Positions 1,483-49,330 of a DNA stretch of 64,000 bases are shown piece after piece (position 1 is the first letter of the stretch; every line of letters begins with the position of its first letter). The notes beneath the pieces are model-generated. The model ran no database searches, had not been told where the DNA came from, and was given only the letters and a program-made list of their open reading frames with translations. The stretch comes from Candidatus Atabeyarchaeum deiterrae. Its GTDB lineage: Archaea; Asgardarchaeota; Atabeyarchaeia; Atabeyarchaeales; Atabeyarchaeaceae. Location of the stretch: the NCBI GenBank assembly GCA_037310415.1, contig CP147780.1, positions 320,001-384,000 on the forward strand, read 5' to 3'. Position numbers and translations under genes: made by a program.

Positions 1483-2195
1483 ATGAAGGATCTAACTGAT
1501 GCTAAAGAGAAGCTCAAACAGCGTTTCATTGAAGAGGGTATTGTGAGCAGCTCAAGTGTCATTAATGCATTCATGAATGTCCCCCGGGAAGAATTCGTTC
1601 CCCCGAACATTAGGGAAGATGCGTACGACGACCGCCCGCTTCCAATAGCAGCTGGTCAAACAATAAGCGCACCACATTACTTGGTCTGTCCCAAGTAAGG
1701 TGAAACATGGTTGTCATAATGTGCGAGCAGCTGAGGCTGGAAGAAGGGAATAAGGTATTGGAGGTAGGGGCAGGCTCAGGTTACCATGCAGCTATTTGCG
1801 CGGAAATTGTTGCTCCACCTGCATCTAATAATCCTGGATACGTCTACTCGGTAGAGAGAATATCATCTTTGGCGAAATGGGCCAGGGAGAATCTGAAGAG
1901 AACTGGATACGCTAATCGTGTGAAGGTAATCGTTGGAGATGGGACAATGGGTTATCGAGAAGCCATGCCTTATGACAGGATACTTGTCACGGCTTCGGCG
2001 CCGAGAATACCCGAACCACTGGTAGAACAGCTGAGAGTAGGGGGCACAATGGCAATACCGATAGGGGAAAAGTATGGCTGGCAAGAGCTTGTTCTTGTCA
2101 AGAAAGTGAAAGAGGAAGAAGTTGTTACAACTAATTTTGGTGGAGTAGCTTTTGTGCCGCTAATCGGCGAGCATGGCTGGAATAACGAAGAATAA
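1483..2195 (+). CDS. pcm: Protein-L-isoaspartate O-methyltransferase, split by a 29-nt BHB intron (exons 1483-1675, 1705-2195)
   Basis: VPREEFVP, AYDDRPLPI, GQTISAPH|MV, VLEVGAGSGY, PYDRILVTASA, VAFVPL; the two ORF halves join in frame after intron removal. Confidence 0.93.
1676..1704 (+). other. Putative BHB-type mRNA intron in pcm
   Basis: Central helix CACC/GGTG, bulges AC|A and AA|A, perfect 8-bp inner stem TTACTTGG/CCAAGTAA; splicing yields GCA CCA CAC ATG (A-P-H-M). Confidence 0.88.
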
Positions 2196-16690: not shown

Positions 16691-17284
16691 ATGAGCAGTG
16701 AATCGGAAATAGTTGACGTCTTATCAAGGGTAGCGAATATCTTTCTTCAGGCCGTAGATGCTCTCGAAAGCAGGATGTACACCATAGAGCAAAGAATCGA
16801 GCAAATTGAAAGGGCATTAGTTGATTCAAGAACGATGGGGGCTCCCGCGGCTAGTAGGGGTCCGCCTCCAGACAATCGAGGAATTCTACCTGCAATAGCG
16901 CAGGAGACTAGGAGAAGTCCTCCACCACCGGTGACTGCTCCGCCTGCACCAATGCCCCAGCAACCCCAAGCTTATGGTGCTCCTCAGCAACAGTGGGGAG
17001 CCCCAAGACAAGATGCTTATCAACAGCCACCTCCCCAAGGCTATCAAGCAAGGCCACAACCACCTCCGCCACAGCCGCAAGGATACCAGCCGCAGAGCCA
17101 ACCTCAAGGATATCAACCGCAGCCGCAAGGTCAGCCGCAGGGTTACCAGTCTGCGCCACCTGGACAGCCGCAACAAGCGCCTCCGCCGACCTCAGGGAAT
17201 CCATTAAACGTGCGTCAGGCCGTCACAGGTGAGCTCAAAGAGATCTTTGCCAGAATGAGAGCCCGGGCTGAGGGGAGAGGATAA
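16691..17284 (+). CDS. Coiled-coil / Pro-Gln-Tyr-rich / C-terminal helix protein
   Basis: N-terminal heptads, QGYQ repeats with PPP runs, terminal ELKEIFARMRAR helix. Confidence 0.75.
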   Translation: MSSESEIVDVLSRVANIFLQAVDALESRMYTIEQRIEQIERALVDSRTMGAPAASRGPPPDNRGILPAIAQETRRSPPPPVTAPPAPMPQQPQAYGAPQQQWGAPRQDAYQQPPPQGYQARPQPPPPQPQGYQPQSQPQGYQPQPQGQPQGYQSAPPGQPQQAPPPTSGNPLNVRQAVTGELKEIFARMRARAEGRG

Positions 17285-17401: not shown

Positions 17402-18810
17402 TTAGAAGTAGTCGGAGAGGCTTTGTTGAGCGCGGTCTCCCTGTTTCGGTTTTGCCGCGGTTTGATCCTTTGCTCTCAGTGATTCTTTCTTCTCGTTGAG
17501 ACTGTTGCTACTTTCGACTGGAGGTGCCTCATCTTCGAATATTATTGGGTAACCATACGTGCCGTCGTACCCTGGTCTGAAGCGAATCTTTTTCTCCCTG
17601 ACTCTGAGGATCGCATCGGCGAGTCTTGCTCCTGAAATTGAAGATATTTCTTCTCTTGAAGCTTCGAGAAGAACATGTAACTCATTGGGAAACTTCTTGA
17701 GCAGTTTGCCATATTCTTCCCAGACACCTTTTGCAAAGACGTCTTTCATCCCCAAGGCAACGGAGATTATCTCTTGAAGTGGGATCAAACAAACATAAGG
17801 TATGGCACCCTGGAGTATGTAGCCCTCAGGTCTATCGGCTAGTTCCTCGATCCTATGCAGAACGCCAACTGTCAGCTTTTTCCTACAAACAGGGCACATG
17901 TTCCCATACTTAGAAGCTTCTTTCGGACTAAGTACGACGTTACAGTCTCTGTGACCAGTGTAATGATATTTCCCATACTCTGGATTTGTCTCAATTGTCA
18001 TCAAGAACCTTTTGGGGTCCTTCTTGCGGATCACGTCAATTATCTCTTTATATGTTACCCCATCCAGTTGAAACACATTTGCTTCCCTGCCAAGACGGTA
18101 GGGCCATGGACTATGGGAGTCGCTGTTGCTCACCAACGTATATTTGTCCAATGCAGAAAGTCGCCAGTTCATCATGGGGTCAGAGCTTAGACCTGTCTCA
18201 ATCGCATGGACGTTCTTTGTTTGGTCTTGGAAACACTCCTCAATACTGTCAAATCCACTCCTTGAGCCAAACAATGAGAACCATGGAGTCCATGCATGTG
18301 CTGGAATTACCTCGTTCCAGTTATCAATTTCCATTATGACCTCAGTCAGTTCTGCAGCTGCAACTCTTAGCTTTGGCCTTCCGTCTGAGTTGAGGTCACC
18401 GTACTTTGAGATTCTGTCAGCTACTTGGTCGGCCACATCTAGGTTCGGACACAAGATTATGAGGTGGATTCGTTTTGGCTCTCCTTTGGACTGGAACCCA
18501 GCCTCAACTTCGCAGGTCGCCATGAAGCGCACTGACTCTGCAGCATTTGCATTGTTTAGAACATACAGCCCACTGTTATCAACCTCTGACAAAGAAGATT
18601 TGCATTCTGCAAGCCATCTCGGCATTGTGAATTGGAGACTCGTCTACTTCAGAAGGACTTGCAGCACGAGTTATCCCCTGTGCCGAGGAGAGTCAGACCC
18701 TTCATCTTGGCTTGTCTCTCAAGGTTGACTAGATTCATTTGTTCGCTAGTGGCAGCTGAGTACTTGCTGTGGATATGGAGGTCTGCAATAACTTTCAGAC
18801 TAGATTCCAC
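17402..18810 (-). CDS. endoQ: Endonuclease Q (PHP-family), split by a 41-nt BHB intron (exons ~18810-18673, 18631-17402)
   Basis: Exon 1 ADLHIHSKYS...GTGD; exon 2 FTMPRW...PAHAWTPWFS, ETGLSSD, SNSDSHS, CPVC; start GTG 18810 or CTG 18798. Confidence 0.88.
18632..18672 (-). other. Putative BHB-type mRNA intron in endoQ
   Basis: Central helix GGGG/CTCC, bulges AT|A and AA|T, inner stem ACTCGT/ACGAGT; splicing yields GGG GAT TTC ACA ATG (G-D-F-T-M). Confidence 0.87.
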
Positions 18811-18967
18811 CTCTGGGATAGAAGCATATAACTATGTTAAGTACCTCTCTTCTTTATATTGATTTTATTTGTTTTGATCTTGACAGAGATTGCTATGCAA
18901 TCAATAAGAGCAACTGGACTTTGTATGAAGCACGTCTCAAGCATTCGAGTTTGAAGGAGAGAGACTC

Positions 18968-49191: not shown

Positions 49192-49330
49192 TGCGGCGCT
49201 CGGGATTTTCACCCTATAAGACCAGTGCTCAGCACAGGGATTTGAACCCGAGTTTCCGCCTTGGGCTGTTGTTAACCCAAGTTAGAGGCTTGGAAGGCCT
49301 CAGTCCTAGACCAGTCTAGACCAGCGCCGC
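49192..49330 (-). tRNA. tRNA-Gly(TCC) with two introns: 45/46 (49254-49282) and 59/60 (49206-49240)
   Basis: GCGGCGC acceptor, GAGGC-CTTCCAA-GCCTC; BHB helices CCTC/GCGG (1 mismatch) and TTCA/TGAA; 75-nt mature, CCA not encoded. Confidence 0.92.

What the first reader, a model, noticed from the sequence alone, without database searches (positions are those of the whole stretch)
18626..18678. 41-nt BHB intron in an endonuclease Q gene at GTGD|F
Seen (minus strand): GGGG AT|A ACTCGT...ACGAGT CTCC AA|T TC ACA ATG. The intron contains an in-frame TGA. Removing 18632-18672 joins an exon missed by the ORF track (ADLHIHSKYS, the PHP metal-binding HxH) to the 407-aa ORF as GTGDFTMPRW, matching the family pattern GTGDFTHPxW. 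Without splicing the nuclease would lack its first metal ligands.
Basis: partly seen in the sequence, partly recalled or inferred. Interest (0 to 1): 0.88.

Follow-up and report, generated by a model that had tools for sequence, protein, structure and literature searches.

The report
tRNA-type intron splitting Asgard EndoQ gene
The DNA-repair nuclease gene endoQ of this Asgard archaeon is interrupted by a 41-base insert shaped like a tRNA intron. The insert is kept at the same codon boundary in all 14 related genomes examined, so the enzyme can very probably be made only after the mRNA is cut and rejoined by the tRNA-splicing enzymes.

Summary
On the minus strand, an exon missed by ORF calling (18810..18673, ...IADLHIHSKYS...GTGD) is separated by 41 nt (18672..18632, in-frame TGA) from the 407-aa EndoQ ORF.

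- **Junction:** removing exactly these 41 nt gives GTGD|FTMPRW. It is the best of 578 possible stop-free joins against an HMM of 70 uninterrupted homologues.
- **Conservation:** 14 distinct orthologues (63-71% identical) form one clade with 100/100 support. All carry an insert at the same GD|F boundary, 31-54 nt long, always with a stop.
- **Structure:** all keep one fold: a 4-bp central helix GGRG/CYCC (A-U, G-U and G-C variants), 3-nt bulges and a long intronic stem. 97.5% of cells are paired, against about 40% in shifted registers.
- **Selection:** both exons are under purifying selection (dN/dS 0.05 and 0.13).
- **Outside the clade:** every other EndoQ sequence examined reads GTGDF without a break.
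- **Machinery:** the genome encodes a two-subunit EndA and RtcB, and its tRNA genes are heavily interrupted.

The 3' splice site is relaxed rather than canonical. No RNA reads were available, so splicing itself is inferred.

In the papers I could search, coding-sequence BHB introns are reported only for crenarchaeal cbf5. This scan has already noted similar mRNA introns in this genome and in other Asgard genomes. I class this as a new member of a known kind.

The parts
18852..18860 (-). Conserved A/T-rich box (ATATAAAGA), a candidate TATA box for the endoQ transcript
   Evidence: The same motif is present about 45 nt upstream of the Shine-Dalgarno-like site in most of the 14 orthologues (AGATAAGAG in a few). 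Promoter function is inferred from position only.
18808..18813 (-). GAGGTG, either a Shine-Dalgarno-like site or (its GTG, 18810-18808) the start codon of exon 1
   Evidence: Present in nearly all 14 orthologues (GGGTTG or a remnant in two). In four of them it is out of frame, so there it can only serve as a ribosome-binding site. The alternative start in this genome is CTG at 18798-18796.
18673..18810 (-). Exon 1 of endoQ (46 codons if it starts at the GTG): ...IADLHIHSKYS...KGLTLLGTGD, carrying the HxH metal ligands of the PHP domain
   Evidence: Aligns to PfuEndoQ residues 3-42, E 1e-6. TIGR00375 profile positions 2-41. dN/dS is 0.047 over 14 orthologues.
18632..18672 (-). 41-nt BHB-type intron with an in-frame TGA at 18651-18649
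   Evidence: It is single-copy in the genome.
18675..18678 (-). 5' strand of the 4-bp central helix (GGGG, end of exon 1). It pairs with CUCC at 18637-18634 (3' end of the intron).
   Evidence: The pair set GGRG/CYCC is paired in 14 of 14 orthologues. One position is A-U in 8, G-U in 5 and G-C in 1.
18672..18674 (-). 5' bulge AU|A; predicted cut after 18673
   Evidence: It is unpaired in the register that leaves a 4-bp central helix. The minimum-energy folds slide it by 1-2 nt, which is energetically equivalent. The cut after the second bulge base gives the best-scoring junction.
18638..18671 (-). Intronic stem-loop. Arms are ACUCGU (18671-18666) and ACGAGU (18643-18638), extended by CUGC/GUAG, with a variable loop.
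   Evidence: The 10-pair helix is 96.4% paired across 14 orthologues, and 2 pairs change on both sides. Loop length and sequence vary; total intron length is 31-54 nt.
18631..18633 (-). 3' bulge position AA|U; predicted cut after 18632
   Evidence: It directly follows CUCC. It lies in a larger internal loop, not a strict 3-nt bulge.
18618..18624 (-). 3' arm (UGCCGAG) of a distal exon-exon helix. It pairs with CUCGGCA at 18687-18681.
   Evidence: The six pairs counted (CUCGGC/GCCGAG) are 97.6% paired, with one pair changed on both sides (C-G to U-A in one orthologue). G000 adds a seventh pair, A-U. Both arms are coding, so part of this conservation may come from the protein.
17402..18631 (-). 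Exon 2 of endoQ: 409 codons plus stop, FTMPRW...QQSLSDYF
   Evidence: PDB 5zb8/7k30 EndoQ, E 1e-47. TIGR00375, E 7e-58. The remaining metal ligands are aligned and a C-terminal QxxLxxYF motif is present. The first 19 codons, which lie upstream of any conserved start codon, have dN/dS 0.127.

Best explanation
The 41 nt at 18672..18632 (minus strand) are an archaeal bulge-helix-bulge intron inside the coding sequence of endonuclease Q.

Proposed mechanism:
1. The gene is transcribed from a promoter upstream of exon 1.
2. In the pre-mRNA, the last four exon-1 bases (GGGG) pair with the last four paired intron bases (CUCC). This 4-bp helix is flanked by the bulge AU|A, which abuts a long intronic hairpin, and by AA|U on the other strand.
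3. The two-subunit (alpha-beta type) splicing endonuclease cuts after the second base of each bulge.
4. RtcB joins the exons. The intron is presumably released as a small circle.
5. The mature mRNA reads ...GTGD-FTMPRW... and encodes a complete 455-residue EndoQ with all PHP metal ligands, a zinc finger and a C-terminal PCNA-binding-type motif.

Shown here: the sequence anatomy, conservation of site and fold across a clade, selection on both exons, the optimal junction, and the presence of the enzymes. Inferred: cleavage and ligation themselves.

The intron was most parsimoniously gained once, on the stem of this family-level Asgard clade, and has been kept since.
For: - **Anatomy and frame:**
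- **Family:** the gene belongs to EndoQ.
- **Gene calls in relatives:** all 23 closest database homologues are called N-terminally truncated, whereas more distant ones carry ADLHIH...GTGDFTHPKW without a break.
- **Same site in orthologues:** 14 distinct orthologues have an insert at the same GD|F boundary. Lengths are 31, 41, 42, 42, 51, 53, 53 and 54 (seven times). Every one gives a stop within 3-13 codons if read through.
- **Junction:** the predicted join is the best of 578 stop-free joins, and exon 1 adds 77 bits.
- **Fold:** unconstrained folds of all 14 give the same architecture. 97.5% of pair cells are standard pairs against 38-46% in shifted registers. The central helix is 100% paired with A-U, G-U and G-C variants. 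Four pairs change on both sides.
- **Selection:** dN/dS is 0.047 for exon 1 and 0.127 for the start of exon 2.
- **Translation signals:** a promoter-like box, a Shine-Dalgarno-like site and a start codon are conserved before exon 1. No start codon is conserved at the start of exon 2; it reads TCG in 10 of 14.
- **Single origin:** the intron-bearing sequences form one clade with 100/100 support. The other Asgard-phylum EndoQ genes examined are unbroken at this site.
- **Machinery:** two EndA paralogues are present. One keeps the Tyr/His/Lys positions as read by eye, and the other lacks the His. RtcB is present.
- **tRNA genes:** 20 of the 24 that ARAGORN finds have introns.
- **A second case in this window:** pcm has a 29-nt insert with the same geometry.
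- **Literature:** relaxed motifs and hetero-oligomeric EndA are linked to the known cbf5 pre-mRNA intron (PMC2738675).
Against: - There is no RNA-level evidence.
- The 3' splice site is not in a strict 3-nt bulge. The helix that should follow it is at most one A-U pair, and the loop is closed only by a distal exon-exon helix. Cleavage there relies on the broad specificity reported for alpha-beta type enzymes in other phyla, which has not been tested for Asgard enzymes.
- Covariation is modest and the 14 sequences are related. Controls: 6 of 500 shuffles reached the observed number of pairs changed on both sides, and 9 of 500 reached the covariation score.
- The margin over neighbouring junctions is small (2.4 bits), because sliding the join by 1-3 nt changes only one residue.
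Confidence: 0.87

Rival explanations
1. This is a split gene with no splicing. A small N-terminal peptide (exon 1 plus seven intron-encoded residues, 53 aa) and the 407-aa protein are translated separately and assemble into an active EndoQ. The insert is only a spacer.
For: Both pieces are open frames. In this genome exon 2 has an ATG two codons after the junction. Gene callers annotate the pieces separately.
Against: - A start codon near the junction is not conserved. The codon after F-T is TCG in 10 of 14 orthologues, and the first usable start lies up to about 35 codons downstream. Yet the codons in between are conserved, with dN/dS 0.127.
- A spacer would not need the conserved 4-bp helix, bulges and hairpin, nor compensatory changes.
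- The break falls inside the invariant GTGDF motif, at exactly the same phase in all 14.
Confidence: 0.06
2. The ribosome skips the insert by translational bypassing (hopping, as in phage T4 gene 60), or gets past it by frameshifting or stop-codon read-through.
For: A stop follows soon after the take-off point, and a stable hairpin sits in the gap. This superficially resembles the gene 60 arrangement (established knowledge).
Against: - Bypassing needs matching take-off and landing codons. The take-off codon is GAU/GAC, but the codon before exon 2 is CAA, CAC or CAU.
- Gap lengths of 31-54 nt with 0, 1 or 2 nt phase offsets, and up to three stops, exclude simple frameshifting or read-through.
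- What is conserved is exactly the substrate geometry of the splicing endonuclease.
Confidence: 0.03
3. The gene is a decaying pseudogene disrupted by an insertion.
For: The reading frame is broken, and a second, degraded EndoQ fragment exists elsewhere in the genome (G000:C1:1101128-1101289).
Against: - Both exons remain open in 14 orthologues that differ at most synonymous sites (pS about 0.65). dN/dS is 0.05-0.13.
- All catalytic ligands and the C-terminal motif are conserved.
- The insert varies internally but keeps its ends and its fold.
Confidence: 0.02

Closest known systems
BHB intron in the cbf5 (pseudouridine synthase) pre-mRNA of Crenarchaeota (Watanabe 2002; Yoshinari 2006; Yokobori 2009, PMC2738675)
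   Same: Both are short introns inside a protein-coding sequence, with a bulge-helix-bulge motif that is often relaxed. Both occur in lineages with a hetero-oligomeric splicing endonuclease and many non-canonical tRNA introns. Both are clade-restricted with variable length. Removal restores a conserved motif.
   Different: The gene differs (a DNA-repair nuclease, not an RNA-modification enzyme). The phylum differs (Asgard, Atabeyarchaeia-like, not Thermoproteota). For cbf5, splicing has been shown experimentally; here it is inferred.
BHB intron in the 5' UTR of Haloferax volcanii HVO_1309 mRNA (PMC7714728)
   Same: An mRNA substrate of the tRNA splicing endonuclease outside tRNA and rRNA.
   Different: That intron lies in the untranslated leader and does not interrupt codons. 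The enzyme there is the homodimeric type, and cleavage was shown in vivo and in vitro.
Non-canonical tRNA introns of Atabeyarchaeia and Freyarchaeia (PMC11291895; bioRxiv 10.64898/2026.10.13.758758)
   Same: Same lineage and the same presumed enzymes. These are also short hairpin introns at unusual positions, and 92-95% of tRNA genes are interrupted.
   Different: Those papers, as far as I could search them, describe tRNA genes only. This intron lies in a protein-coding gene.
Endonuclease Q (PfuEndoQ, PDB 5ZB8, 7K30-7K33; PMC5961232)
   Same: The host gene has a PHP domain with HxH, E, H, H and DxH ligands, a zinc finger and a C-terminal domain. It scores E 1e-47 to the solved structures.
   Different: The first zinc-finger ligand is His rather than Cys (HxxC...CxxC). 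The gene needs splicing to encode its N-terminal 46 residues.

Membership tests
Archaeal BHB (splicing-endonuclease) intron | Two 3-nt bulges on opposite strands, separated by a 4-bp helix | tested here: met
   GGRG/CYCC is paired in 14 of 14 orthologues. It is flanked by A[UC]A on the 5' strand and A[ACU]U on the 3' strand. The register is chosen by me; the minimum-energy fold slides the bulge by 1-2 nt, which is energetically equivalent.
Archaeal BHB (splicing-endonuclease) intron | Helices flanking both bulges (strict hBHBh' form) | tested here: not met
   The inner helix h' is present: 10 pairs, 96% paired. The outer helix next to the 3' bulge is at most one A-U or G-U pair. A 3 x 10-nt internal loop is then closed by a distal 6-7-bp exon-exon helix. 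This makes it the relaxed (HBh'-like) form. That form is known for cbf5 and for non-canonical tRNA introns (PMC2738675), so it is not a failure of the wider class.
Archaeal BHB (splicing-endonuclease) intron | Cuts after the second base of each bulge give a functional product | tested here: met
   The predicted join gives GTGD|F and is the top-scoring of 578 stop-free joins. The same rule restores GTGDFT[SLM]P[RK]W in all 14 orthologues.
Archaeal BHB (splicing-endonuclease) intron | Structure kept by compensatory change while the interior varies | tested here: met
   Four pairs change on both sides. 97.5% of cells are paired, against about 40% in shifted registers. Lengths are 31-54 nt. The statistics are limited by the relatedness of the sequences.
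Archaeal BHB (splicing-endonuclease) intron | A broad-specificity EndA and the RtcB ligase are encoded by the host | tested here: met
   Two EndA paralogues each have both Pfam domains. One has the catalytic Tyr/His/Lys positions and one lacks the His, both read by eye. RtcB scores 582 bits. The actual specificity of the enzyme was not tested.
Archaeal BHB (splicing-endonuclease) intron | Excision and exon ligation seen in RNA | not testable with these tools
   No RNA run holding the locus was listed, and four runs laid on it gave no contig.
Endonuclease Q (TIGR00375 / PfuEndoQ family) | PHP-domain metal ligands (Pfu His8, His10, Glu76, His84, His139, Asp193, His195) | tested here: met
   His8 and His10 align in exon 1. 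The others align in exon 2 at E39, H54, H110, D169 and H171 of the 407-aa ORF, and these are invariant in the clade. The ligand list comes from PMC5961232.
Endonuclease Q (TIGR00375 / PfuEndoQ family) | Whole-protein score above the curated family cut-off | tested here: inconclusive
   The ORF alone scores 196.8 bits against TIGR00375, whose cut-off is 326.6. The spliced product could not be submitted to that tool. Against an HMM of 70 close homologues built here it scores 660 bits. The sequence match to the solved EndoQ structures is E 1e-47.
Endonuclease Q (TIGR00375 / PfuEndoQ family) | Zinc-binding domain with four ligands, and a C-terminal PCNA-interaction motif | tested here: met
   H225-x2-C228...C244-x2-C247 aligns with the Pfu CxxC...CxxC motif, so the first ligand is His here. 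The terminal QQSLSDYF fits QxxLxxYF, with Q400, L403 and Y406 invariant. PCNA binding itself was not tested.

The most novel reading that the evidence does not exclude
The EndoQ intron is one of a genome-wide set. In this Asgard lineage the tRNA-splicing endonuclease and RtcB would routinely splice many ordinary mRNAs, possibly dozens. Expression of enzymes such as EndoQ would then depend on that machinery and could be gated by it. This would be a protein-only mRNA-splicing system in close prokaryotic relatives of eukaryotes.
Probability: 0.55. Interest if true: 0.88.

Novelty: new member of a known kind. Interest (0 to 1): 0.72.

Why it matters
In the papers I could search, endonuclease-spliced introns inside archaeal coding sequences are reported for one gene only, cbf5 in Crenarchaeota. 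One further mRNA intron lies in a haloarchaeal 5' UTR (PMC7714728, PMC2738675).

This case adds a different gene, in a different phylum. [quoted passage not shown]

Three consequences follow:
- Gene callers systematically truncate this EndoQ. All 23 closest database entries lack the N-terminal exon.
- The heavy tRNA-intron load reported for this lineage spills over into mRNAs.
- A DNA-repair enzyme is made dependent on RNA-splicing enzymes. That dependence can be tested directly with recombinant EndA and RtcB.

Tried and rejected
- **RNA evidence:** no RNA holder was listed for window 17402-18900. Laying four metatranscriptome runs from the related studies gave no contig on the stretch. This says nothing either way about expression or splicing.
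- **Genome-wide scan:** I looked for loose BHB motifs whose removal fuses two open frames. It gave 5179 hits against 5348 for random positions. Closely packed neighbouring genes pass the same test, so it could not count mRNA introns and I dropped it.
- **Is the intron a repeat or mobile element?** A short-word blastn against the whole genome found only the intron itself. Rejected.
- **Pfam on the two pieces:** no hit at E up to 1. NCBIfam and the PDB search were informative instead.
- the spliced protein could not be sent to the structure-prediction or family tools. I scored it locally instead.
- **Other readings:** translational bypass, frameshift, read-through, split gene and pseudogene were considered and are listed as rivals.

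Full report
**1. The observation**

Reading the minus strand gives an open frame from GTG at 18810. It runs through ...VIADLHIHSKYSAATSEQMNLVNLERQAKMKGLTLLGTGD and then on into NSCCKSF-TGA (the 53-aa ORF 18649..18810).

In another frame the 407-aa ORF 17402..18625 begins MPRWLAEC... Two further open codons, TTC ACA, precede its ATG.

The 41 nt between GAT (ending at 18673) and TTC (starting at 18631) read AACUCGU...ACGAGUCUCCAA. Removing them gives one 455-codon frame with GTGD|FTMPRW at the join.

**2. The gene**

- The 407-aa ORF matches solved endonuclease Q structures (5zb8, 7k30-33) at E 1e-47, but only from Pfu residue 67 onward. It matches TIGR00375 from profile position 73.
- The small upstream frame matches Pfu EndoQ residues 3-42 (E 1e-6) and TIGR00375 positions 2-41.
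- Pfu His8 and His10, which align to the HIH of exon 1, are Zn ligands of the PHP active site (PMC5961232).
- The remaining ligands (Glu76, His84, His139, Asp193, His195) align to conserved residues of exon 2.
- The protein ends in QQSLSDYF, a QxxLxxYF motif that is invariant in the clade.

So the two frames are the two halves of one intact EndoQ.

**3. Best join**

I built an HMM from 70 uninterrupted full-length homologues. I then scored every join within about ±25-30 nt of the predicted sites that gives a stop-free product (578 joins). The BHB-predicted join ranked first at 660.2 bits. The next scored 657.8, and the 407-aa ORF alone 583.1.

**4. Orthologues**

The 23 closest database proteins (63-99% identical) are all called without the N-terminal exon. 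They start at L/MPRWL or further downstream. All more distant homologues (59% identity or less, mostly Bathyarchaeia) carry ADLHIH...GTGDFTHPKW in one piece.

I fetched DNA for 14 distinct orthologues: this genome, the two same-family genomes G001 and G002, and eleven metagenome contigs. G002 is the same contig as the MAG labelled Promethearchaeati archaeon LC30.

Every one has an insert at exactly the GD|F boundary. Lengths are 31, 41, 42, 42, 51, 53, 53 and 54 nt (the last seven times). Each insert gives a stop 3-13 codons after the boundary if read through. After removal, all give GTGDFT[SLM]P[RK]W followed by an open exon 2 of 409-413 codons.

In a maximum-likelihood tree the 14 intron-bearing sequences form one clade with 100/100 support. 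The other Asgard-phylum EndoQ genes examined are unbroken at this site. One gain on the stem of the clade is the simplest history.

**5. Structure**

Unconstrained folding of each of the 14 sequences gives the same architecture. On the alignment I counted pairs for a named structure with three helices:
- a distal exon-exon helix, CUCGGC/GCCGAG;
- the 4-bp central helix, GGRG/CYCC;
- a 10-pair intronic stem with a 1-nt bulge.

The counts:

| Measure | Result |
|---|---|
| Cells forming standard pairs | 97.5% |
| Same, with the 3' partners shifted by 1-3 columns | 38-46% |
| Central helix | paired in 14 of 14 |
| Third pair of the central helix | A-U in 8, G-U in 5, G-C in 1 |
| Pairs changed on both sides | 4 |

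The varying exon base in that third pair is a synonymous third codon position of Gly. The loop between the stem arms varies freely in length and sequence. The intron has no second copy in the genome.

The geometry parallels a canonical tRNA 37/38 intron. The central helix is formed by the end of exon 1 and the 3' end of the intron. Bulge 1 (A-Y|A) is followed by the intronic stem, and bulge 2 (A-N|U) directly follows CYCC.

One thing is not canonical. After bulge 2 there is at most a single closing pair, then an asymmetric internal loop, then the distal helix. This is the relaxed form. PMC2738675 notes that relaxed motifs are frequent in the cbf5 pre-mRNA intron and ties their use outside tRNA to the hetero-oligomeric endonuclease.

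**6. Selection and translation signals**

Across the 14 orthologues, synonymous sites are close to saturation (pS 0.61-0.69). Even so, dN/dS is 0.047 for exon 1 and 0.127 for the first 19 codons of exon 2.

Those 19 codons lie upstream of any conserved start codon. The codon after F-T is TCG in 10 of 14. They can therefore be under protein-level selection only if translation enters from exon 1.

Upstream of exon 1 there is a conserved ATATAAAGA-type box (AGATAAGAG in a few) and a conserved GAGGTG, followed nine bases later by ATG, TTG or CTG. None of these signals precedes exon 2.

**7. Machinery and setting**

The window lies in a 2.76-Mb single-contig genome.
- It encodes two EndA paralogues, each with both Pfam domains. 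By eye, one keeps the Tyr/His/Lys catalytic positions and the other lacks the His. This is the alpha/beta arrangement associated with broad specificity (PMC5829648, PMC2738675).
- It encodes RtcB.
- ARAGORN finds only 24 tRNA genes, 20 of them with introns. This fits the report that 92-95% of tRNA genes are interrupted in the complete Atabeyarchaeia and Freyarchaeia genomes (PMC11291895). Genome size, contiguity and the nearest named relative are consistent with that lineage. The identification is an inference.

**8. Rivals**

- **Separately translated pieces:** this does not explain the conserved RNA fold, the missing start codon in most orthologues, or the conserved codons before the first start.
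- **Ribosomal hopping:** this needs matching take-off and landing codons. GAY against CAA, CAC or CAU does not match.
- **Frameshift or read-through:** these fail on the mix of lengths, phases and multiple stops.
- **Pseudogene:** this is excluded by the selection data.

**9. What is missing**

No public RNA run holding this locus was listed, and four runs from the related studies gave nothing. Cleavage and ligation are therefore inferred.

**10. Comparison with what is known**

The papers I could search report a BHB intron inside a coding sequence only for crenarchaeal cbf5 (PMC2738675). This was still the only case cited in 2020 and 2025 (PMC7714728, PMC12397907). There is also a 5'-UTR intron in Haloferax (PMC7714728). 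The two papers on Atabeyarchaeia introns deal with tRNA genes.

Earlier notes of this scan list further candidate mRNA introns in this genome (glyA, valS, rio2, pcm). They also list followed-up cases in other Asgard genomes, one of them with RNA-derived contigs. I checked only pcm. Removing window 1676-1704 joins ...QTISAPH to MVVIMCEQL...VLEVGAGSGY, and the insert has a CACC/GGUG helix and an 8-bp hairpin.

I also saw an independent insert in the same gene family in another Asgard family, at ...DPAYG|KYH... It is 28-32 nt long and shows an AUGG/CCAU to ACGG/CCGU compensatory change.

**Verdict**

This is a real, conserved, very probably spliced BHB intron in an Asgard endoQ gene. It is a new member of a known but very small class. 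The scan has already found the same kind of intron on other Asgard DNA.

Noticed in passing
window 1676-1704 (+ strand): The pcm (protein-L-isoaspartate methyltransferase) gene is broken by a 29-nt insert with a CACC/GGUG helix and an 8-bp hairpin. Removing it joins ...QTISAPH to MVVIMCEQL...VLEVGAGSGY in one frame. This is a second candidate mRNA BHB intron in the same window.
   Followed up: partly
L025, L026, L027 (genomes G028, G037, G046), around locus position 2124 in L025/L026 and 1129 in L027: EndoQ genes of another Asgard family are unbroken at GTGDF. They carry a 28-32-nt hairpin insert at a different site...DPAYG|KYHFDGH... The central helix is AUGG/CCAU, changed to ACGG/CCGU in one genome. 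This looks like an independent BHB intron gain in the same gene family. G008, G018 and G055 are also broken near residue 220 but were not examined.
   Followed up: partly
window 18796-18813 (- strand), and the same place in 13 orthologous loci: A conserved GAGGTG is followed nine bases later by ATG (3 orthologues), TTG (2) or CTG (9, including this genome). In L200 an in-frame TGA lies between them, so the GTG cannot be the start and CTG is the only candidate at the conserved position. This suggests possible CTG initiation.
   Followed up: partly
G000:C1:1101128-1101289 (outside the window): A 54-codon fragment is 87% identical to residues 117-170 of this EndoQ and contains a TGA. It is probably a degraded partial duplicate.
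   Followed up: no
whole genome G000; window 49225-49321 (- strand): ARAGORN detects only 24 tRNA genes in the 2.76-Mb genome, which is estimated 97% complete. Twenty of them have introns. The tRNA-Arg(tct) in this window is 97 nt long with no intron called, so it probably hides a non-canonical one.
   Followed up: partly
tree: The intron-bearing Asgard EndoQ clade groups with Bathyarchaeia-type database sequences rather than with the EndoQ genes of other Asgard-phylum genomes. The tree is unrooted and the basal support is moderate. Lateral transfer of the gene before the intron gain is possible.
   Followed up: no
window 16691-17284 (+ strand): The 197-aa ORF next to endoQ has a long Pro/Gln-rich low-complexity repeat (QPQGYQ units).
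   Followed up: no
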